Below are positions 987-50,899 of a stretch of 50,987 nucleotides of DNA, piece after piece. The position numbers and the translations under genes were made by a program. The stretch lies in sequence record OK272486.1; one strand, given 5' to 3'. The stretch comes from Escherichia phage JLBYU10. Each line of letters opens with the position of its first letter. Positions within the stretch are counted from its first letter, which is position 1. The notes beneath the pieces are model-generated. The model saw nothing but the letters and a program-made list of their open reading frames with translations. It did no database searches and was not told where the DNA came from.

Positions 987-1463
987 TTAGCTATTTGTGC
1001 TGTTATCACCTTTGTAGAATCGTCCGCCTGGTTCGTAGTCTGAATTTTTGACTACGCGCAACATCTCGTATTTGTCGCAACGGGTAGTAAGAGGCTTACC
1101 GTTAGAATCAAACCGCAGATCTGGACGACAAAATGATGCGCGGTATCCTTTGCATCCATTATATTTGTAGTCGTTATGCACCTTTTGTGCTCCAGCGGCT
1201 GAAATCATACCACGCTTTCGCCATTGGTTAACGACTTGCTGAGATACGCGTAGACGTCGAGCCATAGCAGGAACACCGCCATAATACTCGATCAGAATAT
1301 CCAAGCGAGATTTCAGGCTTGCTTTTACCTCATCTCGCAGGATAAGAAATCCGGTTCGGTGTTTTCGTGGCTTTTTGTCTTTACCTCGTCGCGTTCCGTT
1401 GTTACCGTTAATAGTGCGCTTGTCGATCTCACCCGTAGAAACCGCAATTCGTGCATCTTTCAT
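987..1463 (-). CDS. HTH DNA-binding protein (Cro/YdaS-like helix-turn-helix)
   Basis: ORF track; segment GGVPAMARRLRVSQQVVNQWRKRG looks like an HTH; basic N-terminus. Confidence 0.45.
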   Translation of the reverse strand: MKDARIAVSTGEIDKRTINGNNGTRRGKDKKPRKHRTGFLILRDEVKASLKSRLDILIEYYGGVPAMARRLRVSQQVVNQWRKRGMISAAGAQKVHNDYKYNGCKGYRASFCRPDLRFDSNGKPLTTRCDKYEMLRVVKNSDYEPGGRFYKGDNSTNS

Positions 1464-1474
1464 CTAGTCACCTC

Positions 1475-1518
1475 ATAGCATTTTTTGTTAAAACAGTTTA
1501 TTGTAATGAGTCTATTAT
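1475..1518 (+). promoter_or_regulatory. Motif-type promoter-like unit: ATAGCATTTTTTGTTAAAAC, 22-bp spacer, TATTAT
   Basis: Conserved motif copy in divergent intergenic region upstream of helicase gene; -10-like hexamer 22 bp after TTGTTA. Confidence 0.45.
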
Positions 1519-1550: not shown

Positions 1551-3548
1551 ATGATTCCAAATATCGAAAAACAAATATCAGCGTTAGGCGAGGCAGTAAT
1601 AAAAAGCATCCAAGAGCGATTCACGGTTGGCAATATAGTGCCTTATCCTTATCAGTGCGTTGCGTATGCCGAGATCGCAAAGCGCATGAAAAACTATGAG
1701 CATCCTTTCTTTGTTAAGGCTTCTGTGTCGGCTGGCAAAACATTGATGTTTGCGATGGTTGCGGCGCAATGCCGAAAAATGGGATTGAAAATGATGGTCC
1801 TTGCTCGCCAGGCTGAAATTGTTGATCAGGATTCGGAAGAGATCAGCAATCTTGGAGTGCCAAACTCAATCTATTGCGCCGGACTGAAAACAAAAAGCGC
1901 ATACTTTCCGATCGTGGTCGGTTCTGAGGGCACTGTAGTAAACGGATTGTTTAAGTCGTTAGGTGATTATGTTCCGCACGTTATCGGTATTGATGAATGT
2001 CACCAGGTGGATTGGGAGGATCTCGCGGACGCGATAGAAAATAATGAATCTTACCAGCAGATGACCACTAAGAAGGATTTGCCTGTACTGATTGGAGAAG
2101 AACAGCAATTTGATTCCAATGGCGATCCAATGTTCGGAACAGGGCGCACACAGTACACCGTAATAATCATGGAAATGATGCGCAGGTGTCGCGAGGCATA
2201 CGGGCACGAATTGCGAATATTCGGTATGACTGGATCTGAGTTTCGCGGCGTGGTTCCAATACTGGTTGAAGATAAGAACAAAAAGGGATTCTGGCGTGAG
2301 CAGGTGACTAACATAGACACAAACTACTTAATCAAATTTGGTTCGGTAGTGCCAACAAATTTCGGCGACGTAGGCGACCTGGGGTATGACCTTTCAGAGT
2401 TCGAAGCCAGTAGCGAGGATGGCGTTTCAGACTTTGACGCTAAAACATTGCGCAAGATGGAAGAAAAGATCCATCAAGACGCAACAATGACACAGAAAAT
2501 CATGGCTAAAGTCCATGAGATATGCAAAGACAGGAACGGAGTTTTAGTTACATGCGCAGGGGAAAGGCACTGCAATGAGGCCGCCGCCGCACTGCCGCCA
2601 GGCGTTGAATACAGGATCATAACTGGCAAGACTGGAGATAATCAGCGTAAAGAGTGGCTGAGGGAGGCATACGAGGGAAAAGTAAAATACATCTTCCAGG
2701 TACAGGCGCTTACCACTGGCGTTAACGTTCCGTTTTGGGATACTTCGGTAATACTGAGAAAGATAGGATCTCTAACATTGCTTATCCAGCTTTTGGGGCG
2801 CGGCATGCGACTGCTTAAGCAATGGCACATTGAGCAGGGATTCAAGAAAAAAGATCATCTTGTATTGGATTTTGCAGGTACTATGGATGAGTTAGGTGAT
2901 TTGTATTTCGATCCAATCCTTGAGCAAGCGCAATTTCAAAAGAGATTTACAAACGGGAAAGAGCCTAAGACTTGCCCGATATGTGGAACGCTAAACAGCT
3001 TTTACGCTCGCCGATGTATGCAAGTAGACGATAACGGGAAGCGATGTGAGCATTTTTGGACTTACAGAATTTGCGAGGACCAGGTAGATCCGAGAACGAA
3101 AAAGATAATCAAGCGCGGCTGCGGAACAAAAAACGACGTAGTGGCGAGAGTATGCCGTTGTTGCGATATTTCTCTTATCGATCCTAACGAGAAGTTAAGC
3201 GGTAAGCACTACACCAAAAACGATTGGTGCAACGTTAAATCTTTCCGCGTTGATATGACGAAAAACCAGAAAGGAATTATTTTTTGCTATGAGCTTGAGG
3301 CCAACGGCGACACGTTCAAGGCATACGAAAGATTTTTCCCTGAGTCAGAAAGCAACATTTGCCGGACGATATGGAGAAAAATAGCATTGCAGCACATACC
3401 GGATCGCAAGATTGCTGGTATGGTGGCGAGCTATAGAAATGCTCGTAAAATAATGTCATACGCTCATCACATCATGCCGCCTGTACGCGTAACGCATCGC
3501 AAAAACGGCAAAGGTGAGGATAACATTGCAAAACGGGAGTTTGTTTAA
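1551..3548 (+). CDS. SF2 DNA helicase with C-terminal Cys-rich zinc-binding region
   Basis: Walker A-like SAGKT, motif II IDECH, helicase C-terminal-like region, multiple CxxC near C-terminus. Confidence 0.65.
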   Translation: MIPNIEKQISALGEAVIKSIQERFTVGNIVPYPYQCVAYAEIAKRMKNYEHPFFVKASVSAGKTLMFAMVAAQCRKMGLKMMVLARQAEIVDQDSEEISNLGVPNSIYCAGLKTKSAYFPIVVGSEGTVVNGLFKSLGDYVPHVIGIDECHQVDWEDLADAIENNESYQQMTTKKDLPVLIGEEQQFDSNGDPMFGTGRTQYTVIIMEMMRRCREAYGHELRIFGMTGSEFRGVVPILVEDKNKKGFWREQVTNIDTNYLIKFGSVVPTNFGDVGDLGYDLSEFEASSEDGVSDFDAKTLRKMEEKIHQDATMTQKIMAKVHEICKDRNGVLVTCAGERHCNEAAAALPPGVEYRIITGKTGDNQRKEWLREAYEGKVKYIFQVQALTTGVNVPFWDTSVILRKIGSLTLLIQLLGRGMRLLKQWHIEQGFKKKDHLVLDFAGTMDELGDLYFDPILEQAQFQKRFTNGKEPKTCPICGTLNSFYARRCMQVDDNGKRCEHFWTYRICEDQVDPRTKKIIKRGCGTKNDVVARVCRCCDISLIDPNEKLSGKHYTKNDWCNVKSFRVDMTKNQKGIIFCYELEANGDTFKAYERFFPESESNICRTIWRKIALQHIPDRKIAGMVASYRNARKIMSYAHHIMPPVRVTHRKNGKGEDNIAKREFV

Positions 3549-3967
3549 TGGCTATAACTGATAAAGGAGATTATCTTGAGTTTTACGAAAGAGATCCAAC
3601 CGACACGAGAAAGGAAGTTAATCACCAGATAGATAGCTTTCAGTGGTTGACTTATGCTCATCCTTATTTGCTAGCGTGGCATACGGTAAACGAGAATGAG
3701 AAGTCGAAAGTAACGGCGATGATTGATCAGCAGTCCGGCTTGGTTAAGGGGGTAAGCGATTTCATCATCCTGATTGGTTCAAACGGAAAATACCCCTTTG
3801 CAGCGATTGAGATCAAACGAGTGAATAAATCAGGCAAGGGGAAAGCATCACCAGTCAGCGATGAACAAAAGGCTTTTTTGCGTCGCGTTCGCAGCTTAGG
3901 AGGATTCGCTGCGGTCGCCTACGGATTTAATCAGTTTAAGTTAGCTATTGAATACATGCTTAAATAG
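3548..3967 (+). CDS. VRR-NUC domain nuclease
   Basis: ATGA start-stop overlap with helicase; SDFIIL...AIEIKR...DEQKAF...GG.AAVAYG pattern typical of VRR-NUC. Confidence 0.6.
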   Translation: MAITDKGDYLEFYERDPTDTRKEVNHQIDSFQWLTYAHPYLLAWHTVNENEKSKVTAMIDQQSGLVKGVSDFIILIGSNGKYPFAAIEIKRVNKSGKGKASPVSDEQKAFLRRVRSLGGFAAVAYGFNQFKLAIEYMLK

Positions 3968-4007
3968 CACTTTTTGTTAAAACTGGCGCGATGGATTGCG
4001 CCATAAT
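3964..4007 (+). promoter_or_regulatory. Motif-type promoter-like unit: ATAGCACTTTTTGTTAAAAC, hairpin in 22-bp spacer, CATAAT
   Basis: Motif overlaps TAG stop of VRR-NUC gene; GGCGC..GCGCC stem in spacer; -10-like hexamer at fixed distance. Confidence 0.5.
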
Positions 4008-4777: not shown

Positions 4778-5035
4778 ATGAAAAAAGAGAGAAGCGTTTA
4801 TTTAAATGAAACTGGCGAGTGGTTGTTATTTCGCGCTATGGTGTGCGATGCACTTGATAAAAACCCTAACGTGAAAAAGATGATTGATTGCGATCCGTGG
4901 GAATTTTCAAGCGCATTAGATATGAGCTTTGATGAGACAAGAAAACTCCCTCTTGAAAAATGGCACGAACAAATCAGAAATGATATGCAAGAGTTTGTAG
5001 ATTCGTGGAATTTTCAGAACGGAATGATCCACTAA
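4778..5035 (+). CDS. hypothetical protein
   Basis: ORF track; ACGGAG RBS; tightly packed. Confidence 0.45.
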   Translation: MKKERSVYLNETGEWLLFRAMVCDALDKNPNVKKMIDCDPWEFSSALDMSFDETRKLPLEKWHEQIRNDMQEFVDSWNFQNGMIH

Positions 5036-5078
5036 TGGCACTTTTTGTTAAAACGCCCGGCATTTTGTCGGGCATAAT
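5036..5078 (+). promoter_or_regulatory. Motif-type promoter-like unit: TGGCACTTTTTGTTAAAAC, hairpin GCCCGGC..CGGGC, CATAAT
   Basis: Motif immediately after TAA stop; 22-bp spacer with stem-loop; -10-like hexamer. Confidence 0.5.
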
Positions 5079-8253: not shown

Positions 8254-8297
8254 AATATACCCGACACTAGGCCGGGCGTTTTAACAAAAAATGCTAT
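8254..8297 (-). promoter_or_regulatory. Motif-type promoter-like unit (minus strand): ATAGCATTTTTTGTTAAAAC, 22-bp spacer, TATATT
   Basis: Reverse-complement motif overlapping TAG stop of upstream minus-strand ORF. Confidence 0.45.
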
Positions 8298-8488
8298 TCA
8301 ATACGCTTTAACGTAACCAGTAATACACCATCATCATTGCATAAAACATGTTCAGTGGTGCTAAAAGCGCGCATATCTGAATAAAGCAGCGTAAGTAACG
8401 CATGAATAAAATCCTCATGTGAGATTGAATTTACGGCGCAGTGCTTCAAGATCTTGTCTATTAGCTTTTGCCTGGAACAATTCATCAT
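8294..8488 (-). CDS. hypothetical protein (overlaps upstream gene by ~74 bp)
   Basis: ORF track; GGGGAG RBS; stop embedded in motif like other real genes. Confidence 0.3.
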   Translation of the reverse strand: MMNCSRQKLIDKILKHCAVNSISHEDFIHALLTLLYSDMRAFSTTEHVLCNDDGVLLVTLKRIE

Positions 8489-8810
8489 CGCCCATCTCCC
8501 CTATTCTAGCCATATCCCTGATCCAGTCGTTGCGCATACCATCCAGGCTATACAATTCGAATCCGAAAGGCCGCTTTGACGATCCTTTGGACCAGTATTT
8601 TCCGCAGACTCCATCTATATAACCAGCCGTCATCATTCTTGCGCAAAATTCCTTAGATGCAAGGCTGGCGAACATTCGCGGCGTAAGTCCGGCGGCCCGT
8701 GCGAGCCGCTCACATTCTCTATGCTGATAGATAAATTTGGCTATGTGCTGCCTGTTAAACCAGTCGTATGACTCACACCATTTATACAGATCAAGCAAAA
8801 ACATAATCAT
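8415..8810 (-). CDS. hypothetical protein
   Basis: ORF track; ATGA overlap with upstream 526-aa gene. Confidence 0.45.
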   Translation of the reverse strand: MIMFLLDLYKWCESYDWFNRQHIAKFIYQHRECERLARAAGLTPRMFASLASKEFCARMMTAGYIDGVCGKYWSKGSSKRPFGFELYSLDGMRNDWIRDMARIGEMGDDELFQAKANRQDLEALRRKFNLT

Positions 8811-10387
8811 CCCAGCAGTATTGGATTGACAAAAATAACACCATTAATCACACAAACATAATTTCTTTCTTCCAGCATTGGCAGCAAGTGCCCTTCTATC
8901 CTCTTCATTACGCCAGCCTGACCAACGAAAGGTTTTACCTTTCTCGCTGATTCGTACAGGGCGCGAATATTCAGGATTCCTTTGTTCGCCTTGCCGTGCC
9001 TCGTGATCAATTCAATCAATTTACCCATTTCAGCATCATCACCAGCATAACCAGAAGCATTGGCGGCGCTAATGTATGTTTTGCTCAATTCCTGAAACAT
9101 GATCAACGCCTCTTGCATTGTTTCCACGTCGATCTCTTTCGACTTCTGCGGGTATCCGGCAGGATTAAACCAGTTACGGATAACATGCAGGACGGAAGCA
9201 AGCCTGATCACCTGTTTATCCATTTTACCCAGCGCACCGCGTAACATTGTATGAGAATACTTTCCTCCGTCTGCAAGATGCGGTTCCATATCCTGGCGAG
9301 CAATGTTGAGCACTCGCATAGCTGAACGGCTTATTTTCAGCGATATATTTGATTCGCTCATGATGTTATGCACCAATTGATAATATTGGGCTTTCAATTC
9401 AGAATCCACCGCCTCATAGGTAGAATCACCATTTTCATCAATGAATGAGCGACGGCCTAAGAATGATTCCTCTCGGACCAACAAAAAACGCTCACTAACA
9501 CCGATGCCTCGCGATCCAGCGTCCATTATTCCGCTTATCGTTTCATCCTGGGCTATAACGCTCATACATCCAAGCGCGCGAAAACTCATATTATTGTCAG
9601 CATTAGCGCGGGCAATTGATACGTGACCATTATCCCACGCCTTAAGCACTAACTCACTGTTAGTCTTCCTTTCGCTATTTGCATAGGTCAAGCCTAACAG
9701 ACTGTTAATACTTGTTGCTTCATCAGATATTACGGCAAAGTTACCTTGCTTGTTGTTGATTTTCGCCAAGCCTTCTGGAGTTGTATCTGAAACAGGAAAA
9801 GTTATATCACACATTTTTTCCAGCTTTTCCTCCAGATCCTCTTTTTCCTGGTATAGAGATTCCATATCAGCGCCGGATCTTTCGCTTTTCATCTCCTTTG
9901 CAAGACCTGCCAGCTTTGCCTGTATTTTCTTTCTTTCCTTGCGGCGTTGCTCGTTGATCTTCTCAACTTCCGCAATCATCGGAGCAATAGCCATGCTGTT
10001 GATCGCAGATTTACCAGTTGACGGCGGCTGGCTTGTAACGACGTAAAGCGCAGTCGGCTGATCTGTTCCGTGATAGTCAACCGTAAAGCGTCCAAGCATA
10101 GCGGCAGAAATGCAGCCGATAAAGTGCATGTAAGCCGATGATTCAGGGAATTGAACGGATCGCGCAATGCTGCGTGATAACTTGCCGACAACATCAATAT
10201 CATTACCAAGAGAAATAACGGGGTAGCGATCGTGACCGCTATTCACATCCTTTACGTCGCCCCAAAAGCTGGACGACTGGCGATAGCCGTTAGCCTGAAT
10301 TGATACGCGAACTGGCGAAAGGTTCTGGCTTTCAGCCATAGCGATTATTTGCTGTGGAGTTAATTTGTTCGTTTCTAATGAAAACAT
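8807..10387 (-). CDS. large hypothetical protein with P-loop-like motif
   Basis: 526 aa; PPSTGKS Walker-A-like; AAGGAGA RBS; coiled-coil-like KEDLEEKLEK segment. Confidence 0.55.
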   Translation of the reverse strand: MFSLETNKLTPQQIIAMAESQNLSPVRVSIQANGYRQSSSFWGDVKDVNSGHDRYPVISLGNDIDVVGKLSRSIARSVQFPESSAYMHFIGCISAAMLGRFTVDYHGTDQPTALYVVTSQPPSTGKSAINSMAIAPMIAEVEKINEQRRKERKKIQAKLAGLAKEMKSERSGADMESLYQEKEDLEEKLEKMCDITFPVSDTTPEGLAKINNKQGNFAVISDEATSINSLLGLTYANSERKTNSELVLKAWDNGHVSIARANADNNMSFRALGCMSVIAQDETISGIMDAGSRGIGVSERFLLVREESFLGRRSFIDENGDSTYEAVDSELKAQYYQLVHNIMSESNISLKISRSAMRVLNIARQDMEPHLADGGKYSHTMLRGALGKMDKQVIRLASVLHVIRNWFNPAGYPQKSKEIDVETMQEALIMFQELSKTYISAANASGYAGDDAEMGKLIELITRHGKANKGILNIRALYESARKVKPFVGQAGVMKRIEGHLLPMLEERNYVCVINGVIFVNPILLG

Positions 10388-10415: not shown

Positions 10416-10459
10416 ATTTTAACGGCCCAATACTACCCCGTTTTGTCAAAAAGTGCTAT
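10416..10459 (-). promoter_or_regulatory. Motif-type promoter-like unit (minus): ATAGCACTTTTTGACAAAAC, hairpin GGGCCG..CGGCCC, TAAAAT
   Basis: Motif overlaps TAG stop of upstream gene; -10-like hexamer in hairpin loop 22 bp after TTGACA. Confidence 0.5.
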
Positions 10460-10677
10460 TTGATCCGCTCTATTGCAACCAGAAGTCGATCAGGCTGGCG
10501 GTCGCTGTAGCATTCTCCTGTAATCCCATCCTTAAACGTAAAGTAAAGCGCCTTATGATATGAAAAACCAATCAGCCAACCTACCGCCGTTTTTTTGATG
10601 GGCCTAACTATATCGCCAGGCTTGAAAGTCTTTGTGGTAGAATGCGTTACTTTATAACGGTTTTCACTGTTTATCAC
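10456..10677 (-). CDS. hypothetical protein
   Basis: ORF track. Confidence 0.45.
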   Translation of the reverse strand: MINSENRYKVTHSTTKTFKPGDIVRPIKKTAVGWLIGFSYHKALYFTFKDGITGECYSDRQPDRLLVAIERIK

Positions 10678-11089: not shown

Positions 11090-11133
11090 ATTATGCCAGG
11101 TTTTTACACCTGGCTTTTAACAAAAAGTGCTAT
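11090..11133 (-). promoter_or_regulatory. Motif-type promoter-like unit (minus): ATAGCACTTTTTGTTAAAAG, hairpin CCAGG..CCTGG, CATAAT
   Basis: Motif overlaps TAG stop of methyltransferase-like gene; fixed 22-bp spacer. Confidence 0.5.
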
Positions 11134-11870
11134 TTTGAATTTGACTCAAAGACGGCGCGAGCAAATCCGCGCGGAGTGAGGGAGCGTAGTTGCTTTGTTC
11201 TGGCAGACTTACCGCCTAAAAACTTCCAACCCCAAAAGAACATTACGCCATCATCATTGGATAACGGCTTGCGTTCCGGTTCGGTAAATCCGTTGCCGCA
11301 CCAGATAGCCGTCCTTTTAGTGTAGCCATCCTTTAGCGGCATTTTGGGGTGAAATGACCCATCGGATTCGTCCAAGTAGTTACCAAAATCGCGCGGATTG
11401 AAATAAAAATCCGGCTTGCGCCATAGCGTTGATAGTCGGCCTACCGGATTCTCAGCCATCCAGGGAACACCGAAATGATTTCCGACTTTTTCAACCATGA
11501 TTGCATTTTGGAGCGCGATATGAATATCGTCTTCGCTGCGCACATGCTTACTTCCTGATTGGGCGAACATGGTGCAGTCTGGAAAGCCAAATACAATATC
11601 AGGTTTTGGAATATCCATCTTAATGATGTTTTCAATGAAATTTTCATCAATCCACATATTCACATAATGCAGATTTTCATGCTTCATTTTGATGAAATAT
11701 TCTCCGTGATTGCCTTCGTCAGCGTTAAAGCAATAGCATTGATAACCAGCCTTCGCATATTCAAGCAACATGATTCCAGATCCATCAAACATTGAGTAAG
11801 CAACTTTATTTCCCATGATTTTTATGATACCCCAATTCATTCTCGGCTTTACGTTTTGCGGCAACAGCAT
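11130..11870 (-). CDS. DNA cytosine methyltransferase-like protein
   Basis: FDGSG (motif I-like), GFPDC (Pro-Cys-like), ENP motifs; start uncertain (overlaps HNH gene end). Confidence 0.5.
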   Translation of the reverse strand: MLLPQNVKPRMNWGIIKIMGNKVAYSMFDGSGIMLLEYAKAGYQCYCFNADEGNHGEYFIKMKHENLHYVNMWIDENFIENIIKMDIPKPDIVFGFPDCTMFAQSGSKHVRSEDDIHIALQNAIMVEKVGNHFGVPWMAENPVGRLSTLWRKPDFYFNPRDFGNYLDESDGSFHPKMPLKDGYTKRTAIWCGNGFTEPERKPLSNDDGVMFFWGWKFLGGKSARTKQLRSLTPRGFARAVFESNSK

Positions 11871-12333
11871 CTCCAAAACTGGAGAAACAACCTATATAAA
11901 TCCTACTTCCTCGCTTTCCGCTTCCAACCCTTACAATCCACTTGCCATGTTTATTTTTATGCACGCCTGGTATGCCACTTGTATTGTTTTTCTGCTTTGA
12001 TGTGTTTCGCATATTTCCTTTGTGATCTTTTAACTCAAAGTTTATTGCTCTGTTATCAGTCGTAATGTGATTTACGTGATCAACCTCCATTCCTTCCGGT
12101 ATAGGCCCATAGTGCATTTCATAGCATATTCTATGAACTTTCAGGTTATAACGTTTTCCGTTTACAGTAAGTGCGGTTTCTAAATATCTGCCACCACTAC
12201 CCAAAGAGCCAACCTCATTACCAGCATTACAAGCATTCCATTGTTTAACTCTTGATTGGTGAATATCTTTTCTTTCTTTCCAGAACAGCTTTCCGGTTTC
12301 TGGATTGTATGTAAAGTAATCGTGCCAATTCAT
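11806..12333 (-). CDS. HNH homing endonuclease (HNH plus AP2-like DNA-binding region)
   Basis: VDHVNHITTDNR HNH signature; GIPGV...KW...VG; paralogous to ORF at 39518..39994. Confidence 0.65.
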   Translation of the reverse strand: MNWHDYFTYNPETGKLFWKERKDIHQSRVKQWNACNAGNEVGSLGSGGRYLETALTVNGKRYNLKVHRICYEMHYGPIPEGMEVDHVNHITTDNRAINFELKDHKGNMRNTSKQKNNTSGIPGVHKNKHGKWIVRVGSGKRGSRIYIGCFSSFGDAVAAKRKAENELGYHKNHGK

Positions 12334-13779: not shown

Positions 13780-13823
13780 AATATACCATTCAGGAGCACA
13801 TCGTTTTTAACAAAAAGTGCTAT
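13780..13823 (-). promoter_or_regulatory. Motif-type promoter-like unit (minus): ATAGCACTTTTTGTTAAAAA, 22-bp spacer, TATATT
   Basis: Motif overlaps TAG stop of upstream gene. Confidence 0.45.
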
Positions 13824-14110
13824 TCAACAACTTTTCCAGTTAAAGAGATAAGTTGCCTTGTAATCTTGTGGCGGCGATACTTACGCGCAACAACAGGAAG
13901 GCTTTCACCGCTTTGATGGCCAAAGCAGATCGGCAATTCACCTTCAAGGGAGCGGAAGCCACCAAATTCAAGATCCCGCACTGGCTTCGTGCGCCAGGCT
14001 TCAATAAATCCTCGCTCGTCACGAGTGATATAGCGGTATATGTTCGGGAGGGGCAATTGTATCCCCTCAAAATCCACGGTGTCGGTATAGCTATAAAACT
14101 TAGAACTCAT
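13820..14110 (-). CDS. hypothetical protein
   Basis: ORF 13820..14161 trimmed to Met coupled to upstream small ORF. Confidence 0.4.
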   Translation of the reverse strand: MSSKFYSYTDTVDFEGIQLPLPNIYRYITRDERGFIEAWRTKPVRDLEFGGFRSLEGELPICFGHQSGESLPVVARKYRRHKITRQLISLTGKVVE

Positions 14111-14252
14111 AGTCAACAACTCCAAACTCATTGACGATTTGGGCCTTGTAGAAGCCGCCATTTTTCGCCAGGTTGTAACAAGCGGCTACGGTTTCAAATT
14201 CGCGCGCTTCCGGCTGGCTGTTTTCGTGTTCCCAGGTAATCAGAGTAACCAT
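14100..14252 (-). CDS. small hypothetical protein (50 aa), not in ORF track
   Basis: Hand translation MVTLITWEHENSQPEAREFETVAACYNLAKNGGFYKAQIVNEFGVVDYEF; GAGGA RBS. Confidence 0.3.
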   Translation of the reverse strand: MVTLITWEHENSQPEAREFETVAACYNLAKNGGFYKAQIVNEFGVVDYEF

Positions 14253-14285: not shown

Positions 14286-14329
14286 AATGTACAGGAATGC
14301 GAGGATTGAGTTTTAACAAAAAGTGCTAT
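14286..14329 (-). promoter_or_regulatory. Motif-type promoter-like unit (minus): ATAGCACTTTTTGTTAAAAC, 22-bp spacer, TACATT, 10-bp inverted repeat CCTCGCATTC/GAATGCGAGG around it
   Basis: Motif adjacent to TAA stop of upstream gene; long stem flanks the -10-like hexamer. Confidence 0.45.
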
Positions 14330-14593
14330 TTAGTCCAGGAATTCGATTTCACGCTCTCCAGTTAACGGATCCACAAGCCAGAATCCGAGCGGTTCGCCGT
14401 GAACACCGCCATAGAATCCAAGCGCCGTCAGATCTTCACCTTTAACAAATACCAGTTTTCCGCTACGGCCTACGTGAGACACGTTAACGATAACCGGAAA
14501 TGTGCGATCCTTAAATGCAGGACGCAGGGCGTAACATCCGTTGTTGAGCAAACGTGCTTTGCGCTTAACTGGAATAGGTGCATTAATTTTCAT
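14330..14593 (-). CDS. hypothetical protein
   Basis: ORF track; AAGGAG RBS. Confidence 0.5.
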   Translation of the reverse strand: MKINAPIPVKRKARLLNNGCYALRPAFKDRTFPVIVNVSHVGRSGKLVFVKGEDLTALGFYGGVHGEPLGFWLVDPLTGEREIEFLD

Positions 14594-15589: not shown

Positions 15590-15633
15590 AATGTACCCGA
15601 TCAGACGGCCTGAGTTTTAACAAAAAGTGCTAT
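15590..15633 (-). promoter_or_regulatory. Motif-type promoter-like unit (minus): ATAGCACTTTTTGTTAAAAC, 22-bp spacer, TACATT
   Basis: Only motif copy heading the leftward gene block; not preceded by a gene. Confidence 0.5.
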
Positions 15634-15660
15634 TTGACGGTTAGCGCCAGGATTGTGATC

Positions 15661-16165: not shown

Positions 16166-16172
16166 AAAACAG

Positions 16173-16230: not shown

Positions 16231-16695
16231 ATGAGCGAGCAATCATTCACTGACACGCTGCGCCGTGCCGCTATTATGCTGGCTAATGGCGAGGAAGAGA
16301 CGATCAAGATTCCTGACGCGTATTTGCAGGTCCACATGTTCGGCAAGAAGTCGGCAAGCAATCCGGCGGCCTACATTCGCCAGATCATGAGTCGAGTGCC
16401 AGAAGTCGCCGAGCGGGGGAGCGTATCCGTTACCCGTGGCGTTTACGGGCCGGAAGATGAAAACTTCGGTAGCACTTTCTACGAGGTGCGCATTGTTGAA
16501 GGCCGTCGCAAGGTTTACAACAAAGATGCACTGGAAAGGGCAGTACGCCAGGCTAAGCGCAAGGTTGCAGAGGCGATCATTGATATGTCACCAAACCTGG
16601 CAAACTATGCGCCGGAAGAGTATGAAACATTATCAAAGGCCGTCGCTGACTTTCACGCGATGATCAAAAAAACTTTCCTGGAGGATGAGCAATGA
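16231..16695 (+). CDS. hypothetical early protein
   Basis: ORF track; AGGAGG RBS; first gene after strong promoter. Confidence 0.55.
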   Translation: MSEQSFTDTLRRAAIMLANGEEETIKIPDAYLQVHMFGKKSASNPAAYIRQIMSRVPEVAERGSVSVTRGVYGPEDENFGSTFYEVRIVEGRRKVYNKDALERAVRQAKRKVAEAIIDMSPNLANYAPEEYETLSKAVADFHAMIKKTFLEDEQ

Positions 16696-16964
16696 AAAAG
16701 GCGTTAATCGGCGTTTTGGTGGCAATGGCATTCCTGACCGGATGCGAAGAAGATGGCGCGCATGTTGGCAATGTGCAGATGGCTAACCCTGGCGATGACT
16801 ACAGCGTAAGGGAGCTATTCACCGCCGATGGTTGCACTGTTTACCGATTCTATGACGGTCGCACTGTTTACTTCACCAACTGCAAGGGAACGACTAGCTG
16901 GGAAGTGTCGAAAAGCAACGGCAAAGGCACGAAAACAGAATACATGACCGTTGAGACAAAATAG
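16692..16964 (+). CDS. lipoprotein (possible superinfection-exclusion type)
   Basis: Signal peptide with lipobox FLTGC; ATGA overlap with upstream gene. Confidence 0.5.
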   Translation: MKKALIGVLVAMAFLTGCEEDGAHVGNVQMANPGDDYSVRELFTADGCTVYRFYDGRTVYFTNCKGTTSWEVSKSNGKGTKTEYMTVETK

Positions 16965-17003
16965 CACTTTTTGTTAAAACTCAAATGTGGGGCCAGGTAT
17001 AAT
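16961..17003 (+). promoter_or_regulatory. Motif-type promoter-like unit: ATAGCACTTTTTGTTAAAAC, hairpin GGGCC..GGCCC, TATAAT
   Basis: Motif overlaps TAG stop of lipoprotein gene; TATAAT in hairpin loop 21 bp after TTGTTA. Confidence 0.5.
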
Positions 17004-17677: not shown

Positions 17678-18217
17678 ATGAAAAAATACACTTTCGAACT
17701 ATGGGGCAAGAAATACGAATTAATGACCAGCAAGCCGATTGTTGTGTGCGATCTCGACGGCACGCTATCGGACGGATCGCATCGTTTGCATTTGCTGCCA
17801 ACTGAAAACTTGCACCTTACGGAATCGTGGAGCGAATTTAACAGGGCCGCCGCCGGAGATTCACCGATTAAAAGCACGATCGCGGTTATTAACGGTTTAT
17901 GGGTGTCGGGATTTGCCATCGTCATCTTGACCGGACGCAGCGACGAGGTTCGCTATGAAACCTGCAAATGGTTGAATGAGAACGGCGTGAAGTTTGACGA
18001 AATCATCATGCGCCGCCAGGAGGACAACCGAAAGGATACTGTTATTAAAGAAGAAGCCTTGCGCGCTATTGGCCTGGACAACATTGTTTGCGCCTTTGAC
18101 GATTCGCCGAACGTGGTTAAGCACTTCCGCAGCTTGGGGATCACAACCTATCAGGTCACGGAATACGACAAGCCACACGCTCACCTGCAATCTCACGGCG
18201 TGGAGTGTTTAAAATGA
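17678..18217 (+). CDS. HAD-family phosphatase (polynucleotide 3'-phosphatase-like)
   Basis: DLDGTL motif I of HAD superfamily near N-terminus; further acidic motifs. Confidence 0.55.
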   Translation: MKKYTFELWGKKYELMTSKPIVVCDLDGTLSDGSHRLHLLPTENLHLTESWSEFNRAAAGDSPIKSTIAVINGLWVSGFAIVILTGRSDEVRYETCKWLNENGVKFDEIIMRRQEDNRKDTVIKEEALRAIGLDNIVCAFDDSPNVVKHFRSLGITTYQVTEYDKPHAHLQSHGVECLK

Positions 18218-18375
18218 CTTGGTTGCTTTTAATCTTTGTCACAAGTTACAACTCCGCAGCTATTGAGTCGCAGGAGTTCCACGGCGAATCAAGATGCCAG
18301 GAAGCGCGAAAGCAAGTTGTTCTCCACATGTCAGATAGTGGTAAGGATGTAACAGCGTTATGCGTTCGTAAATAG
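18214..18375 (+). CDS. small hypothetical protein (53 aa), not in ORF track
   Basis: Hand translation MTWLLLIFVTSYNSAAIESQEF...; ATGA overlap upstream; TAG stop embedded in motif. Confidence 0.3.
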   Translation: MTWLLLIFVTSYNSAAIESQEFHGESRCQEARKQVVLHMSDSGKDVTALCVRK

Positions 18376-18415
18376 CACTTTTTGCAAAAACAGATTATCG
18401 GGCTTGCGGTATAGT
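18372..18415 (+). promoter_or_regulatory. Motif-type promoter-like unit: ATAGCACTTTTTGCAAAAAC, hairpin GGGCTT..AAGCCC, TATAGT
   Basis: Motif overlaps TAG stop; -10-like hexamer in hairpin loop, 22-bp spacer. Confidence 0.5.
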
Positions 18416-19105: not shown

Positions 19106-19696
19106 ATGAAACGAGACATTATCATCCTTAATGGGCCGCCAGGTTGCGGGAAGGACACTATTGCAGCTTACCTAACGGGCCATCGTTACCCAGCGGTCAA
19201 GGCGTCATTCAAACAGCCGATGTTCGATATTGCTTTTTCTATGCTGGGCGTGTACCGATACGATGAATTTATGGACCTGTACAACGACCGAGAGCAAAAA
19301 GAAAAGCCTCAAGTTATCTTAGGCGGCAAGTCACCTCGACAATTCATGATCTGGATTAGTGAGGATGTAATGAAGCCAGTTTTTGGGGAGCAGTATTTCG
19401 GGCGTCGAATGGTTGAAGAGATTCACGAGATGTACCGAGATTTGGCGGTTGTGATCAGTGATGGCGGATTCCCCGAAGAAATCAAGCCGCTTGTTAAGGC
19501 AGGGCATGAAGTGCATATTTGCCGATTGCATCGCGACGGCTTCACGTTTGCTGGCGATTCGAGAGACTACATTGACCTGAGCGGTTATCACTATCGAATC
19601 CATCACTATGACTTCCACTTGCAGGACGGCAAGCCGGAACTGGCTGTAAACGAGATCGTCAATACTGTCAAATGGAAGCACACACAGATTAAATAG
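19106..19696 (+). CDS. P-loop nucleotide/polynucleotide kinase-like protein
   Basis: Walker A GPPGCGKDT at N-terminus, adenylate-kinase-like. Confidence 0.55.
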   Translation: MKRDIIILNGPPGCGKDTIAAYLTGHRYPAVKASFKQPMFDIAFSMLGVYRYDEFMDLYNDREQKEKPQVILGGKSPRQFMIWISEDVMKPVFGEQYFGRRMVEEIHEMYRDLAVVISDGGFPEEIKPLVKAGHEVHICRLHRDGFTFAGDSRDYIDLSGYHYRIHHYDFHLQDGKPELAVNEIVNTVKWKHTQIK

Positions 19697-19736
19697 CACG
19701 AATTGCTAAACGCGGGGTTATCGGCCCCGCTATAAT
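19693..19736 (+). promoter_or_regulatory. Motif-type promoter-like unit (degenerate motif ATAGCACGAATTGCTAAAC), hairpin GCGGGG..CCCCGC, TATAAT
   Basis: Motif overlaps TAG stop of kinase gene; 22-bp spacer. Confidence 0.45.
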
Positions 19737-20696: not shown

Positions 20697-20987
20697 ATGG
20701 CAAACAAAACTTACCGCAAACTACTGGTTAACGCTTTTGAAAACATCGCGCAGTGTAACAAGTGGAACGACTCTAAACACTCGCCAGTCACAATGAAGCG
20801 CGCCGGATTCAAAAATGCTCGTTCATGGGCGCGAGCTTTCGCAGCTTGCTATATGCCGGATGGCGGACTAGGGGCGATGAACGATTTTTTGATCAATATG
20901 ATAGAGGAAGCGGCGCGAGAGGATCGACCGCTGACACAGCGAGATTTTGACGACTTCGCGCGCGATGAGCTTTACTATCTGAGCTAA
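20697..20987 (+). CDS. hypothetical protein
   Basis: ORF track. Confidence 0.45.
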   Translation: MANKTYRKLLVNAFENIAQCNKWNDSKHSPVTMKRAGFKNARSWARAFAACYMPDGGLGAMNDFLINMIEEAAREDRPLTQRDFDDFARDELYYLS

Positions 20988-21030
20988 TAGCACTTTTTGT
21001 TAAAACTTCCGCAAGGGCATTTGGTAAAGT
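20987..21030 (+). promoter_or_regulatory. Motif-type promoter-like unit: ATAGCACTTTTTGTTAAAAC, hairpin AAGGGCA..TGCCCTT, TAAAGT
   Basis: Motif abuts TAA stop; -10-like hexamer inside hairpin, 22-bp spacer. Confidence 0.45.
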
Positions 21031-23113: not shown

Positions 23114-23641
23114 ATGGCTAAAAACGTTGAGCCTGCTGTAAAGGCATTAAATTTCAAAGAGTTATACAATAAAACTTATGGCGATATTGTTACGCTAAAT
23201 AACCGCCACAAGTACACGCCGGAACAGGTTTTTGATATGGCGATCCGCTATTTCACTTGGGCCGAAGAGAATCACATCCAGGCGGCTGAAACTGCTTCCT
23301 TTCAGGGTGACGTGTACGAGAGCAGAGTTTACAAGCCTCGCGTTTTCACGGTTAACGGATTCAGCTTGTATCTAGGCGTTACCGAGGCGGCTGTAAGCAA
23401 GTGGCGTAAAGAGCCTGGATTCTGCGATGTGATGGAGTTTGTTGATAAAGTAATTTACGAGCAAAAATTCCAGCTTGCGGCAAACAACATGATTAACGCT
23501 GGATTCATCGGTAAAGAGATCGGAGTAGAGAAGCCAGCGACAGTGAGCGTTGAGGCGAGCGCGGCAGCTAATGCAAGCATTGACGCAGTAACTGCCGATG
23601 AGGTGAAAGAGGCCGTGATTGATATTCTGGAGCAACTTTAA
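23114..23641 (+). CDS. terminase small subunit (putative)
   Basis: ORF 23072..23641 trimmed to Met with AAAGGAGG RBS; directly upstream of TerL. Confidence 0.5.
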   Translation: MAKNVEPAVKALNFKELYNKTYGDIVTLNNRHKYTPEQVFDMAIRYFTWAEENHIQAAETASFQGDVYESRVYKPRVFTVNGFSLYLGVTEAAVSKWRKEPGFCDVMEFVDKVIYEQKFQLAANNMINAGFIGKEIGVEKPATVSVEASAAANASIDAVTADEVKEAVIDILEQL

Positions 23642-25209
23642 TGATCATATGGGAAGATTTGACGGCGGCGCAAAAGCGAGCCATTAAAGAAATCAGTGAG
23701 CATTCATTCGAAAAGATGATCAGAATCTGGTTCCAATTATTGCAGGGGCAAAAATTCCAGAGCAACTGGCATTTTAGCTTATTGTGCAGTGAGGTAGAGA
23801 AGATCATCAATGGAGAGTCGCAGAATGTGATTTTCAACATTACGCCAGGTAGCGGCAAGACTGAGATTTTCTCGATCCACATGTCACCCTACGCGTCATT
23901 GAAAAGCCGGAAAGTGAGAAACCTTAACCTTTCGTTTAGTGATGGCCTTGTCCAGCAAAACAGCAACCGGATAAAGGAGATTATTGGTTCTCCTGAGTGG
24001 CAAGAGCTATGGCCTGGAAAACTGGCAAAGGCGAGCGCTAAAGATCTGATAGTCACCGAAGGCGGCAAGGTTAAATTGCAGGTTAACTCACGTTCTATTG
24101 GCGGCCAGGTAACAGGTTTGCGTGGCGGCTATATGGATGATGGTTTTACTGGTATGCTGGTTCTTGACGATCCAGACAAGCCGTATGATATGCTTTCTAA
24201 GGTCAAGCGCGAGGCTATTCACATGCGGTTAAAAAACACAGTGCGATCGCGTCGAATGAAAGACACCACGCCGATTGTTATGGTGCAACAGCGACTACAC
24301 GTTAATGATTCCACCTGGTTCATGCTTAATGGCGGAATGGGTGGTATTGAGTTTAAAGTCGTGAGCATTCCGGCGCTGGTTACGAAAGAATACCGCGAAA
24401 CGCTTCCTGATTGGTTGAAGCCTGAATTTGATCGTGATGTGCTGTCAAGTAAGCCAGTGATGATAGATGGCGTTGCTCATTATTCATTTTGGCCTGCGAA
24501 GGAAAGCGCGGAGGAATTGCTTGCATTGCGCAATGCAGATCCTTATACGTTCGCCAGTCAGTACCAACAGCAGCCAATCGCGCTGGGCGGGAACGTGTTT
24601 AAAACAGAGTGGTTCCAGTATTACGGCAGCGGCGAAAAATGCGCACTTCCTAAACCGGATCGCTTTGAATACACATTTATCACTGGAGATACCGCACAGA
24701 AGGCCGGAGAGCTTAACGACTATTCGGTTTTTTGTTATTGGGGGATGTATAAGAATCGCGTTTACTTCATTGATGGCATTCGCGGAAAGTGGGAAGCGCC
24801 GGATCTTGAATTAAATTTTATTGCCTTCGTTAACCAGTGCTGGAAGCGCAATAAGGAGTGTGGCAGCTTGCGACGTATCCACATTGAGGATAAGGCCAGC
24901 GGCACGGGTTTGATTCAGGGGGCCAAAAAGAAGATCCCGATTGATATAAATCCCGTTCAGCGAAGCAATGACAAGGTGACGCGAGCAATGGACGCCGCGC
25001 CAGTAATGAGGGCCGGACGTGTGGCACTGCCAGAAAATCACCCCATGCTGCCTGAGATACTGGCAGAGGTTGCAGCATTCACTTTTGATGATTCTCATCC
25101 CCATGATGATATTGTCGATAATATAGTTGATGCTGTTAACGTCGAAATGAACTTGGCAGATGATCCGGTGGCAAGGATGAAAAAGCTGGCTGGTCTACGC
25201 AATAAATAG
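23641..25209 (+). CDS. terminase large subunit
   Basis: 522 aa; Walker A-like PGSGKTE, Walker B-like LVLDDPD; position before portal. Confidence 0.75.
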   Translation: MIIWEDLTAAQKRAIKEISEHSFEKMIRIWFQLLQGQKFQSNWHFSLLCSEVEKIINGESQNVIFNITPGSGKTEIFSIHMSPYASLKSRKVRNLNLSFSDGLVQQNSNRIKEIIGSPEWQELWPGKLAKASAKDLIVTEGGKVKLQVNSRSIGGQVTGLRGGYMDDGFTGMLVLDDPDKPYDMLSKVKREAIHMRLKNTVRSRRMKDTTPIVMVQQRLHVNDSTWFMLNGGMGGIEFKVVSIPALVTKEYRETLPDWLKPEFDRDVLSSKPVMIDGVAHYSFWPAKESAEELLALRNADPYTFASQYQQQPIALGGNVFKTEWFQYYGSGEKCALPKPDRFEYTFITGDTAQKAGELNDYSVFCYWGMYKNRVYFIDGIRGKWEAPDLELNFIAFVNQCWKRNKECGSLRRIHIEDKASGTGLIQGAKKKIPIDINPVQRSNDKVTRAMDAAPVMRAGRVALPENHPMLPEILAEVAAFTFDDSHPHDDIVDNIVDAVNVEMNLADDPVARMKKLAGLRNK

Positions 25210-25226
25210 CACTAATTGCCAAAAAG
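25206..25226 (+). repeat. degenerate motif copy (ATAGCACTAATTGCCAAAAAG) followed by terminator
   Basis: Overlaps TAG stop of TerL; lacks -10 at canonical spacing. Confidence 0.4.
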
Positions 25227-29829: not shown

Positions 29830-29848
29830 CGTTTAACAAAAAGTGCTA
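29830..29848 (-). repeat. motif copy in inverted orientation (GTTTAACAAAAAGTGCTAT) upstream of capsid gene
   Basis: Reverse complement of motif inside a rightward operon, next to a terminator. Confidence 0.45.
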
Positions 29849-29853
29849 TCATC

Positions 29854-33601: not shown

Positions 33602-33615
33602 AAGGAGATCTTAAG

Positions 33616-50882: not shown

Positions 50883-50899
50883 TTGTAAAATCCTCCTAA

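What the first reader, a model, noticed from the sequence alone, without database searches (positions are those of the whole stretch)
3964..3983. Stop codons of upstream genes are embedded in the motif (TAA-ATAGCAC / TAGCAC)
In at least 12 copies (3964, 5036, 8294, 10456, 11130, 13820, 14330, 16962, 18373, 19694, 20985, 25207, 39454) the upstream gene ends with TAG or TAA inside or directly abutting the ATAGCAC half of the motif. This couples gene ends to the regulatory element and recalls the 'stoperator'-like sites scattered near stop codons in some temperate phages. It also gives independent support for which small ORFs are real: those whose stops fall in the motif.
Basis: seen in the sequence. 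Interest (0 to 1): 0.5.

Follow-up and report, generated by a model that had tools for sequence, protein, structure and literature searches.

The report
Gene stops built into phage promoters
In this T1-like phage a repeated 22-base box that marks the upstream edge of its early promoters sits directly on the end of the preceding gene, so the box supplies that gene's stop codon. This is a tidy, previously undescribed detail of a known kind of phage promoter cassette, not a new regulatory system.

Summary
The window is a Warwickvirus (Drexlerviridae, T1-like). It holds 19 strong copies of aaA-TAGCAC-nnn-TTGyTAAAAC. All 13 copies with a co-directional upstream gene carry that gene's stop at -4 to +2 of the box: TAG of TAGCAC 9 times, TAA at -4 twice, TAA at -3 twice. 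In four annotated relatives (JK16, T1, TLS, Rtp), 51 of 57 such junctions behave the same. TAG ends 47% of box-adjacent genes and 4.5% of the others.

The stoperator reading is not supported. The box lies at a fixed distance from a G-14/TAnnnT extended -10 (16 of 19 copies, P~1e-19), a CA start point at +49 and a start codon at +70 to +83. It therefore spans -49 to -31 of a promoter. A GC-rich hairpin with compensatory changes fills the spacer. Mosaic breakpoints between relatives fall on the box edge and on the next start codon.

The closest known kind is the T4-type PeSL (promoter-early stem-loop) cassette, which also begins at the upstream stop codon. The same T1-type cassette occurs in T4-like Klebsiella phages that lack the Drexlerviridae HTH regulator.

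The box itself was published for phage TLS in 2024, with its function left open. No transcript-end data were found.

The parts
3962..3983 (+). Motif copy (the given finding). TAG 3965-3967 is the stop of the VRR-NUC gene 3548..3967.
3985..4002 (+). GC-rich hairpin GGCGC-N8-GCGCC in the promoter spacer. The orthologous hairpin shows compensatory changes across 12 phages.
4002..4007 (+). -10 hexamer CATAAT at +37. The predicted start site is about 4014, and the start codon of the Dam methylase gene is at 4048.
1473..1494 (+). Motif copy heading the helicase operon. It is divergent from the HTH regulator gene 987..1463(-) and has no upstream co-directional gene.
5033..5054 (+). Motif copy (TGGCAC variant). 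TAA 5033-5035 ends gene 4778..5035.
8278..8299 (-). Motif copy. TAG 8296-8294 ends the 64-aa ORF 8294..8488 (phrog_9539).
10440..10461 (-). Motif copy. TAG ends gene 10456..10677. It is the promoter for the helicase gene 8807..10387.
11114..11135 (-). Motif copy. TAG ends the methyltransferase gene 11130..11876. It forms a conserved island between non-homologous flanks when compared with JK16.
13804..13825 (-). Motif copy. TAG ends gene 13820..14161. It is the lower boundary of a 424-bp cassette that is absent from JK16.
14310..14332 (-). Motif copy. TAA 14332-14330 (offset -4) ends gene 14330..14593. It is the upper boundary of the same cassette.
15614..15635 (-). Motif copy. It is the first leftward promoter of the early divergent region and has no upstream gene.
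16959..16980 (+). Motif copy. TAG ends gene 16692..16964. The crossover point against JK16 lies inside it; JK16 has two copies flanking 1.8 kb.
18370..18391 (+). Motif copy. TAG ends gene 18205..18375.
19691..19712 (+). Motif copy (GAA subtype). TAG ends the dNMP kinase gene 19106..19696.
20985..21006 (+). Motif copy. TAA 20985-20987 ends gene 20697..20987.
25204..25225 (+). Motif copy. TAG ends the large terminase gene 23641..25209. It has no -10 at +37 and is followed by a terminator at 25237-25258.
29830..29851 (-). Reversed copy in the leader region of the major capsid gene. There is no upstream gene on its strand.
33582..33603 (-). Reversed copy abutting the RBS of gene 33616..33933.
39454..39476 (+). 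Motif copy. TAA 39454-39456 ends tail gene 38860..39456. It is the first bases of an HNH-endonuclease cassette (39458-39999) that is absent from JK16.
44896..44917 (-). Motif copy heading a leftward two-gene operon in a divergent region.
50898..50919 (+). Motif copy lying reversed inside the leader of the minus-strand tail-fibre gene (ATG 50882).

Best explanation
The box aaA-TAGCAC-nnn-TTGyTAAAAC is the upstream recognition half (about -49 to -31) of the phage's early/middle promoters.

Anatomy of the cassette, in order:
- the box;
- an 18-nt spacer that usually forms a GC-rich hairpin;
- an extended -10 (G at -14, TAnnnT);
- a C-A start point at +49;
- an A-rich leader (CATCGAAACGAA) with the ribosome-binding site;
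- a start codon at +70 to +83.

The TTAAAA part of the box aligns with the -35 TTGACA of the PeSL promoters of T4-type phages. The promoters are most likely read by host sigma-70 RNA polymerase. This step is inferred.

Why stops end up in the box:
1. There is no spare DNA between a gene and the next promoter.
2. The box itself closes two reading frames, with TAG at 0 and TAA at +13. The third frame is closed by a T at -4 (TAA-A-TAG).
3. Genes are gained, lost and swapped as cassettes whose junctions lie in the box and at the next start codon. A gene therefore travels already fused to a box.

Consequences shown here:
- Proteins ending at the box TAG end in Lys or Glu (AAA or GAA).
- Proteins ending at +13 carry a box-encoded N-S-T-N-C tail.

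Inferred: on read-through RNA the ribosome is released just before the hairpin, which terminates or attenuates that transcript, while a new transcript starts 49 nt downstream.
For: Stop positions: 13 of 13 junctions in the window and 51 of 57 in four annotated relatives.

Promoter anatomy:
- 16 of 19 copies have a -10-like hexamer at +36/+37, against a background of 4.3% (P=1e-19), and 12 of those have G at -14.
- The 74-copy logo shows G35, TATAAT at 37-42 and C48-A49.
- Start codons lie at +70 to +83.
- Canonical -35/-10 promoters are not enriched (29 found, 33.7 expected). These boxes therefore account for most candidate promoters in the early regions.

Hairpin: mean MFE -9.0 kcal/mol, mean z -2.5, n=74. 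The orthologous helix is 97% paired, 4 of its 6 pairs show changes on both sides, and 0 of 500 shuffles reach the observed value.

The box keeps TAGCAC where no gene ends.

Cassette exchange:
- 10 of 39 window breakpoints fall inside cassettes that cover 4.5% of the region (P=6e-6), and 5 of them at -6 to +1 (P=3e-7).
- Duplicated cassettes flank indels at 13822/14328 and at JK16 16585/18379.
- An HNH-endonuclease cassette starts exactly at 39458.

PeSL parallel:
- phi1 PeSLs show stop codon, A/T run, TTGACA, a GGGG..CCCC hairpin, TATAAT and an ACACACATCGAAACGA leader.
- PeSLs were shown to be very strong promoters, and a PeSL stem-loop terminates transcription, in E. coli reporter constructs.

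T1-type cassettes with embedded stops also occur in the T4-like phages KP15 and mtp7. There they flank homologues of PeSL-flanked ORFans, and mtp7 has no homologue of the Drexlerviridae HTH protein.

The box and its architecture are conserved in Vibrio phage Vc1 and in a contig encoding the Pantoea phage AAS23 regulator.
Against: - I found no transcript 5' or 3' end data for any T1-like phage. The start site and promoter activity are inferred.
- There is no consensus -35. TTAAAA with a 19-nt spacer is weak, and the invariant GCAC of TAGCAC is not explained by what is known of alpha-CTD or sigma region 4 contacts. A dedicated binding factor therefore cannot be excluded.
- Three of the 19 copies lack a -10 at the right distance (25207, 29848, 50901).
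- The reversed copies in late-gene leaders are not explained.
- The strong excess of frame 0 (11 of 13 in the window; 34 of 51 in relatives, where orthologous junctions make the counts non-independent) is only loosely explained by cassette inheritance.
- Breakpoints at gene borders are partly expected whenever whole genes are replaced.
Confidence: 0.77

Rival explanations
1. Stoperator or operator reading. The box is the binding site of a phage regulator, for which the conserved Cro/YdaS-like HTH protein 987..1463(-) is the candidate. That regulator would block or switch transcription at many gene ends. Reversed copies in late leaders would act as roadblocks.
For: - The site is asymmetric, present in many copies and co-oriented with transcription, and it overlaps stop codons, as the TLS authors also noted.
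- An HTH regulator is conserved in 849 phage records, essentially the whole family.
- The regulator's own gene end lies in a box copy (T1, TLS, and weakly in the window at 1002-).
- Its promoter overlaps a box promoter back to back.
- Copies lie downstream of late -10 elements.
Against: - The box has a fixed phase with the -10 and the start codon.
- Copies head divergent operons that have no upstream transcription.
- The family is virulent and has no annotated immunity repressor.
- The same cassette occurs in T4-like phage mtp7, which has no homologue of the HTH protein (best tblastn E=0.016).
- No covariation between box and protein could be tested, because both are nearly invariant.
Confidence: 0.1
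2. RNA-level signal. The box acts in the read-through transcript as a 3'-end element, namely an A/U-rich single strand followed by a hairpin. It would serve as an RNase E or RNase III processing site or as a terminator placed right after the stop codon.
For: - It always lies at gene 3' ends and is co-oriented with the genes.
- The hairpin is under selection for pairing.
- The T1 record annotates these hairpins as terminators.
- A PeSL stem-loop terminates transcription in a reporter.
Against: - The most conserved part is the box, not the hairpin.
- The box keeps a strict distance to the -10 and the start codon, which an RNA 3' signal does not need.
- Six copies have no upstream co-directional gene, and reversed copies would be read as the complement.
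- Most hairpins lack a U-run.
- No Rfam family matches.
- The hairpin could still work at the RNA level alongside a DNA-level box.
Confidence: 0.08
3. Selected universal stop. The TAG and TAA triplets are kept in the box because the cassette must end whatever gene it lands behind. It would be a portable three-frame stop joined to a promoter.
For: - TAA(-4), TAG(0) and TAA(+13) together close all three frames, and all three are used in relatives.
- Cassettes carrying HNH endonucleases insert directly behind genes.
- A gene in the one open frame reads through the whole promoter (T1 ST8).
Against: - T at -4 is present in only 28 of 74 copies, so only two frames are closed by the box itself. By my own rough estimate that happens about one time in five in an A/T-rich 19-mer.
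- Copies with no gene to end keep TAG just as well.
- The hairpin position does not track the stop position.
Confidence: 0.04
4. Chance or base composition. Stops fall near the box only because intergenic DNA is A/T-rich.
For: The box is A/T-rich, and stops are common in such sequence.
Against: - The stop is at -4 to +2 in 13 of 13 junctions.
- TAG is used by 47% of box-adjacent genes against 4.5% of other genes (P=1e-14).
- The box is over-represented several hundred-fold.
Confidence: 0.01

Closest known systems
21-nt direct repeats of phage TLS (aaATAGCACnnnTTGnTAAAA; PMC11447400, 2024)
   Same: It is the same element. The paper reports 21 copies, 18 of them intergenic, lying in the direction of transcription about 76 nt upstream of start codons. 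It says the repeats are also seen in T1, Rtp and Rogue1.
   Different: The paper does not mention stop codons; the term has 0 occurrences in the text and in the supplement. It does not link the repeats to a -10 or a start site. It lists their function as an open question and offers stoperator, enhancer site or UP element as possibilities.
PeSL (promoter-early stem-loop) cassettes of T4-type phages RB49/phi1 (PMC2839356, PMC4122927)
   Same: - Composite cassettes that start at the upstream gene's stop codon.
- An A/T-rich stretch, a promoter, and a GGGG..CCCC-type hairpin often placed between -35 and -10.
- A shared -10 plus ACACNCATCGAAACGA leader.
- Location in front of small ORFans.
- Bounding of indels and replacements between relatives.

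   Different: - PeSLs have a consensus TTGACA -35 with a 17-18-nt spacer and no TAGCAC box.
- The T1-type cassette has TTAAAA with a 19-nt spacer, an extended -10 and the invariant TAGCAC.
- In PeSLs the stop lies next to the A/T stretch. Here it is part of a conserved box.
- PeSLs were defined in Straboviridae, whereas this window is a Drexlerviridae genome. T1-type cassettes do also occur in the Straboviridae phages KP15 and mtp7.
Stoperators of mycobacteriophage L5 (Brown et al. 1997, as cited; details from my own knowledge)
   Same: Many copies of an asymmetric site, in one orientation relative to transcription, lying in short intergenic spaces at gene ends.
   Different: Stoperators are repressor sites of a temperate phage and have no fixed relation to promoter elements. 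Here the site is phased with a -10 and a start site in a virulent family.
UP-element and extended -10 promoters of E. coli and of phages T5 and T4 (from my own knowledge; UP elements are mentioned)
   Same: - An A/T-rich stretch upstream of -38.
- G at -14 with TAnnnT, which compensates for a weak -35.
- Strong early phage promoters read by the host polymerase.
   Different: UP elements have no conserved G/C core such as GCAC, and they extend to -59. The box ends at -49 and overlaps the -35 position.

Membership tests
L5-type stoperator | Sites bound by the immunity repressor of a temperate phage | tested here: not met
   No integrase or immunity repressor is annotated in JK16, T1, TLS or Rtp. 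The family is described as virulent. Only a Cro/YdaS-like HTH protein is present.
L5-type stoperator | Asymmetric multi-copy site, one orientation relative to transcription, in short intergenic spaces or at stop codons | tested here: met
   There are 19 copies. 13 of 13 junctions carry the stop at -4 to +2, and the copies are co-oriented with the genes except for the reversed late copies.
L5-type stoperator | No fixed relation to promoter elements; acts by blocking elongation | tested here: not met
   16 of 19 copies have a -10 at +36/+37 (P=1e-19) and start codons at +70 to +83. The elongation block itself cannot be tested here.
PeSL cassette | Cassette begins at the stop codon of the upstream gene | tested here: met
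   the PeSL definition is
PeSL cassette | Sigma-70-type promoter with consensus -35 and -10 | tested here: inconclusive
   The -10 (extended type) is present. There is no TTGACA; TTAAAA sits at the aligned position with a 19-nt spacer.
PeSL cassette | Stable stem-loop inside or next to the promoter | tested here: met
   70% of copies fold at -5 kcal/mol or lower and the mean z is -2.5. Compensatory changes are seen in the orthologous helix.
PeSL cassette | Cassettes bound indels and replacements between close relatives | tested here: met
PeSL cassette | Promoter and terminator activity in reporter assays | not testable with these tools
   This has been shown only for phi1 PeSLs.
UP element | A/T-rich alpha-CTD site at -59 to -38 with no conserved G/C core | tested here: not met
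   The box spans -49 to -31 and has invariant G2, C3, A4 and C5.
Sigma-54 promoter | GG at -24 and GC at -12 with fixed spacing (TGGCAC-N5-TTGCW) | tested here: not met
   The box is TAGCAC-N3-TTGY. The sigma-54 consensus is recalled from my own knowledge.
T4 MotA-dependent middle promoter | MotA box centred at -30, 11-13 bp from the -10 | tested here: not met
   TTGYTA lies 22 bp upstream of the -10. KP15 annotators labelled the element 'putative middle promoter' on the basis of MEME only. MotA and AsiA genes were not searched for.

The most novel reading that the evidence does not exclude
The TAGCAC box is the site of a dedicated, still unidentified factor. That factor could be the family's HTH protein or a host protein. 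This would define a -35-less promoter class in which forward copies at -40 switch early/middle genes on, and reversed copies in late-gene leaders hold late genes back or fire antisense RNA. Because the box carries its own stops, the cassette would be a portable 'gene end plus promoter' adaptor that moves between unrelated phage families (Drexlerviridae and T4-like Slopekvirus).
Probability: 0.2. Interest if true: 0.65.

Novelty: new member of a known kind. Interest (0 to 1): 0.4.

Why it matters
- The function of the 21-base repeats of T1-like phages was listed as an open question by the TLS authors in 2024. The anatomy found here turns it into a precise, testable prediction: a start site 49 nt after the T of TAGCAC, an extended -10, and a spacer hairpin.
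- It explains why standard promoter finders report only a handful of promoters in these genomes.
- It shows that promoter sequence dictates the last residue or residues of about a dozen proteins per genome, and most of the genome's TAG stops.
- It gives annotators a cheap rule for small genes in Drexlerviridae.
- It extends the PeSL idea, in which promoter cassettes act as joints for gene shuffling, from T4-type phages to a second family. The same cassette is shared across the two families.

Tried and rejected
- **Chance or A/T composition.** Rejected by the counts.
- **Sigma-54 promoter and MotA box.** Neither the spacing nor the key bases fit.
- **Canonical sigma-70 scan.** Such promoters are not enriched, and only one box promoter is picked up.
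- **Ribosome-to-hairpin spacing.** I tested whether hairpins start further downstream when the stop is at +13. They do not: starts are 18-27 against 15-30 for stops at 0.
- **Covariation between the HTH regulator and the box.** Not possible, because all homologues are at least 51% identical and the box is unchanged even in the Vibrio and Pantoea phages.
- **A distant small HTH hit in Klebsiella phage XY3.** That phage has no box.
- **The 32-aa ORF ending at -14 as the true gene upstream of 8296.** Rejected in favour of the 64-aa frame-0 ORF, on substitution pattern and the PHROG match.
- **Literature search for T1-like transcript mapping.** Nothing found.
- **Rfam.** No family matches.
- **The L5 stoperator paper.**

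Full report
**What the window is.** The window is almost collinear with Shigella phage JK16 and with Escherichia phages tunus, tonijn and SECphi27, at 96-99% identity. These belong to genus Warwickvirus, subfamily Tempevirinae, family Drexlerviridae, the T1-like phages. It has early arms on both strands, replication genes and a long late operon.

**The motif.**
- At 3964-3983 the sequence is ATAGCACTTTTTGTTAAAAC.
- ATAGCAC occurs 19 times against 5.1 expected.
- The 19-mer with up to 3 mismatches occurs 15 times against 0.04 expected.
- A position weight matrix finds 19 strong copies. Ten are on the + strand (1476, 3965, 5036, 16962, 18373, 19694, 20988, 25207, 39458, 50901) and nine on the - strand (8296, 10458, 11132, 13822, 14328, 15632, 29848, 33600, 44914).
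- Positions are those of the T of TAGCAC, which I.

**The observation.** Thirteen copies have a co-directional gene upstream. In all thirteen the gene's stop lies at -4 to +2:
- the TAG of TAGCAC nine times;
- TAA at -4 twice (TAA-A-TAGCAC);
- TAA at -3 twice.

The junction genes of JK16 are RefSeq-annotated, and tunus and tonijn annotate equivalents for the two junctions at which the window differs from JK16. One ORF, 8294..8488(-), is not annotated there. It has a ribosome-binding site and overlaps the end of the YdbL-like gene out of frame. In its own frame 6 of 11 variable codons are synonymous, against 2 of 9 and 0 of 9 in the other two frames, and it matches phrog_9539 over its full length (E=2e-24). 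The remaining six copies have no gene upstream on their strand, yet they keep TAGCAC.

Of 57 copies with a co-directional CDS ending within 60 nt, the first base of the stop falls as follows:

| Stop position | Copies |
|---|---|
| 0 | 27 |
| +13 (the TAA inside GTTAAAAC) | 8 |
| -4 | 7 |
| -3 | 6 |
| -1, +6, -5 | 1 each |
| further upstream | 6 |

- TAG ends 27 of 57 box-adjacent genes but only 12 of 264 other genes (Fisher P=1e-14). Most TAG stops in these genomes are therefore the box's own TAG.
- The box closes frame 0 (TAG) and frame 1 (TAA at +13) by itself. Frame 2 is closed only if -4 is T, which holds in 28 of 74 copies.
- Where frame 2 is open, a gene can run through the whole promoter. 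T1 ST8, an HNH endonuclease, does this.
- Proteins that end at the box TAG end in AAA (Lys; 21 of 27 in relatives, 7 of 9 in the window) or GAA (Glu). Those ending at +13 carry the box-encoded tail N-S-T-N-C.
- Frame 0 is over-used: 11 of 13 in the window (P=2e-4) and 34 of 51 in the relatives (P=1e-6, not independent because of orthology). I have only a loose explanation for this.

**What the box is.** I aligned 74 copies from the window, T1, TLS and Rtp on the box. The conserved positions are:
- AA at -2 and -1, TAGCAC at 0-5, TTG at 9-11 and TAAAA at 13-17;
- after an unconserved stretch, G at +35 (58 of 74) and TATAAT at +37 to +42;
- C48 and A49, an A-rich leader, and a purine-rich patch around +62 to +66.

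In the window 16 of 19 copies have a -10-like hexamer at +36/+37. The background rate for that is 4.3%, giving P=1e-19, and 12 of the 16 have G at -14. Annotated start codons lie at +70 to +83. This is the anatomy of an extended -10 promoter with its start site at +49, which places the box at -49 to -31.

A scan for standard TTGACA-N16-18-TATAAT promoters finds no excess (29 found, 33.7 expected) and picks up only one of the box promoters. That explains why the TLS authors reported just three sigma-70-like promoters.

**The hairpin.** The spacer between box and start site usually forms a GC-rich hairpin.
- Over +17 to +51 the mean MFE is -9.0 kcal/mol and the mean z is -2.5, and 70% of the 74 copies fold at -5 kcal/mol or lower.
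- For the orthologous site after the VRR-NUC gene, 12 distinct phages keep a 6-bp helix. These include Vibrio phage Vc1 and a contig encoding the Pantoea phage AAS23 regulator. The helix is 97% paired, 4 of its 6 pairs change on both sides, and no shuffle of 500 reaches the observed value.
- The T1 record annotates these hairpins as terminators. Most of them lack a U-run.

**Cassettes as joints.** I compared the window with JK16, tunus, tonijn and SECphi27.
- 10 of 39 distinct homology breakpoints in the window fall inside the -10 to +90 cassettes, which cover 4.5% of the region (P=6e-6).
- They cluster at the 5' edge of the box (five at -6 to +1; P=3e-7), at its 3' edge, and at the next start codon.
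- The copies at 13822 and 14328 flank 424 bp that JK16 lacks, and the 80-nt cassette matches JK16 twice.
- JK16 copies at 16585 and 18379 flank 1.8 kb that the window lacks. The two alignments overlap by 27 nt at window 16959-16985, a stretch that contains the whole box.
- Window 39458-39999 is an insertion relative to JK16. It starts exactly at a box and carries an HNH endonuclease with its own box promoter.
- Breakpoints at gene borders are partly expected when whole genes are swapped. The duplicated-cassette cases are the stronger evidence.

**Comparison with what is known.**

*The TLS paper.* The element was published for phage TLS in 2024 as 21 copies of aaATAGCACnnnTTGnTAAAA. The authors noted its orientation and its distance of about 76 nt to start codons. 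They suggested stoperators, enhancer sites or UP elements, and listed its function among the unanswered questions. They do not mention stop codons in the text or the supplement. No other paper in the library prints the sequence.

*PeSL cassettes.* The closest known kind is the PeSL cassette of the T4-type phages RB49 and phi1. The authors describe it as starting with the stop codon of the upstream gene, followed by an A/T-rich stretch and a sigma-70 promoter. A GGGG..CCCC stem-loop often lies between -35 and -10. PeSLs sit in front of ORFans and mediate indels by recombination. In reporter constructs they are very strong promoters, and a PeSL stem-loop terminates transcription.

Reading phi1 PeSLs directly shows the following arrangement:
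- a TAA stop, then AAAAGTTG;
- TTGACA, then a GGGGATC..GATCCCC hairpin;
- TATAAT, then an ACACACATCGAAACGA leader, a GGAG ribosome-binding site and the ATG.

The -10, the leader and the hairpin position match the T1-type cassette. The TTGACA aligns with the TTAAAA of the box.

*T4-like Klebsiella phages.* An exact-match scan of viral contigs found the 20-mer almost only in contigs of about 50 kb or shorter fragments, with one exception, the T4-like Klebsiella phage KP15.
- KP15 has full T1-type cassettes, comprising an embedded stop, the box, a GGGGTA..TACCCC hairpin around TATAGT, and CATCGAAAC.
- They flank KP15_13B, a homologue of phi1 ORF193, one of the PeSL-flanked ORFans.
- The record labels them 'putative middle promoter; discovered using MEME'.
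- The related phage mtp7 has four strong copies, each with the upstream stop at 0, -3 or -4. It has no homologue of the Drexlerviridae HTH protein (best tblastn E=0.016).

This favours recognition by the host polymerase and weighs against the HTH protein being required.

**Who reads the box?** This remains inferred.
- The invariant GCAC core is not what an alpha-CTD site looks like.
- The box resembles a sigma-54 site but has N3 in place of N5 and AG in place of GG.
- TTGYTA is 22 bp from the -10, so it fits neither a standard -35 nor a MotA box.
- The conserved Cro/YdaS-like protein 987..1463(-) (phrog_2856) is present in 849 phage records and is a candidate binder. Both the protein and the box are too invariant for a covariation test.

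**Verdict.**
- The stoperator interpretation is not supported. The stop is embedded for three reasons: the box is the first element of a tightly abutted promoter cassette, it happens to contain stops, and genes are exchanged at these cassettes.
- This is a new member of the PeSL-like kind. It is of moderate interest, mainly because it makes an acknowledged open question directly testable.

Noticed in passing
window 29830-29851(-), 33582-33603(-), 50898-50919(+): Reversed box copies sit in the leaders of late genes: before the major capsid gene, abutting the RBS of 33616, and in the leader of the minus-strand tail-fibre gene (ATG 50882). T1 (15085-, 18849-) and JK16 keep reversed copies at both corresponding junctions, and TLS (15041-) at the capsid-gene one. 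They could be antisense promoters or operator-like sites. They remain unexplained.
   Followed up: partly
window 40051-40069(+); T1 locus L002 8363 and 25020-25040: A degenerate forward copy (CAGCACAAAAGGTTAAAAG) lies between a late -10 and the start codon of the J-like tail gene and contains its RBS. T1 has similar copies before the J-like tail gene and terS, and TLS before the J-like tail gene.
   Followed up: partly
window 23040-23085, 33522-33556, 37329-37366, 40000-40035, 50928-50972(-): Late-gene junctions share another architecture: a terminator hairpin, a T-run, then directly a TGnTAnnnT-like -10 with no -35. This fits the 'transcripton' idea proposed for T1.
   Followed up: partly
window 15633-16230 and 44915-45343: Two large gene-free divergent regions have the same layout. 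A box promoter points leftward and a near-consensus sigma-70 promoter points rightward (16173-16201 TTGACA-17-GATAAT; 45286-45313 TTGACT-17-TACAAT). Between them lies odd TG/TA-rich DNA. Four (G/T)TAATCA repeats lie at 15674-15752. They are possible origin or control regions.
   Followed up: partly
window 39458-39999: An HNH homing-endonuclease gene (158 aa; Pfam HNH_3, phrog_99) with its own box promoter is inserted exactly after the stop of tail gene 38860..39456. It is absent from JK16. In Rtp and T1 several HNH genes also follow box copies.
   Followed up: yes
window 8294-8488(-): A 64-aa ORF is unannotated in JK16, tunus, tonijn and SECphi27. It overlaps the 3' end of the YdbL-like gene by 74 nt in another frame and looks real, on synonymous-biased changes and a match to phrog_9539 (E=2e-24).
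   Followed up: yes
window 1464-1550: The promoter of the HTH regulator gene (minus strand, TATAAT as the reverse complement of 1515-1520) and the box promoter of the helicase operon (TATTAT 1513-1518) overlap at their -10 elements. This back-to-back arrangement suggests mutual exclusion or autoregulation.
   Followed up: no
window 984-1005(-): A weak box copy (CAGCACAAATAGCTAATGA) lies at the end of the HTH regulator gene. Its TAA at +13 is the gene's stop (989-987), as at the stronger copies in T1 and TLS.
   Followed up: partly
loci L056/L163 (KP15 10084-, 10438-) and L165-L168 (mtp7 32493-, 80103+, 80458+, 173218+): Complete T1-type cassettes with embedded stops occur in T4-like Klebsiella phages (Slopekvirus), which lack the Drexlerviridae HTH protein. 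In KP15 they are annotated as 'putative middle promoter'.
   Followed up: yes
window, +43 to +60 after each box (e.g. 15583-15570 on the - strand): A conserved transcribed leader, (A)CACNCATCGAAACGAA, follows the -10 in T1-type cassettes and in phi1 PeSLs alike. Its role, for example at the start site or in mRNA stability or translation, is unknown.
   Followed up: partly
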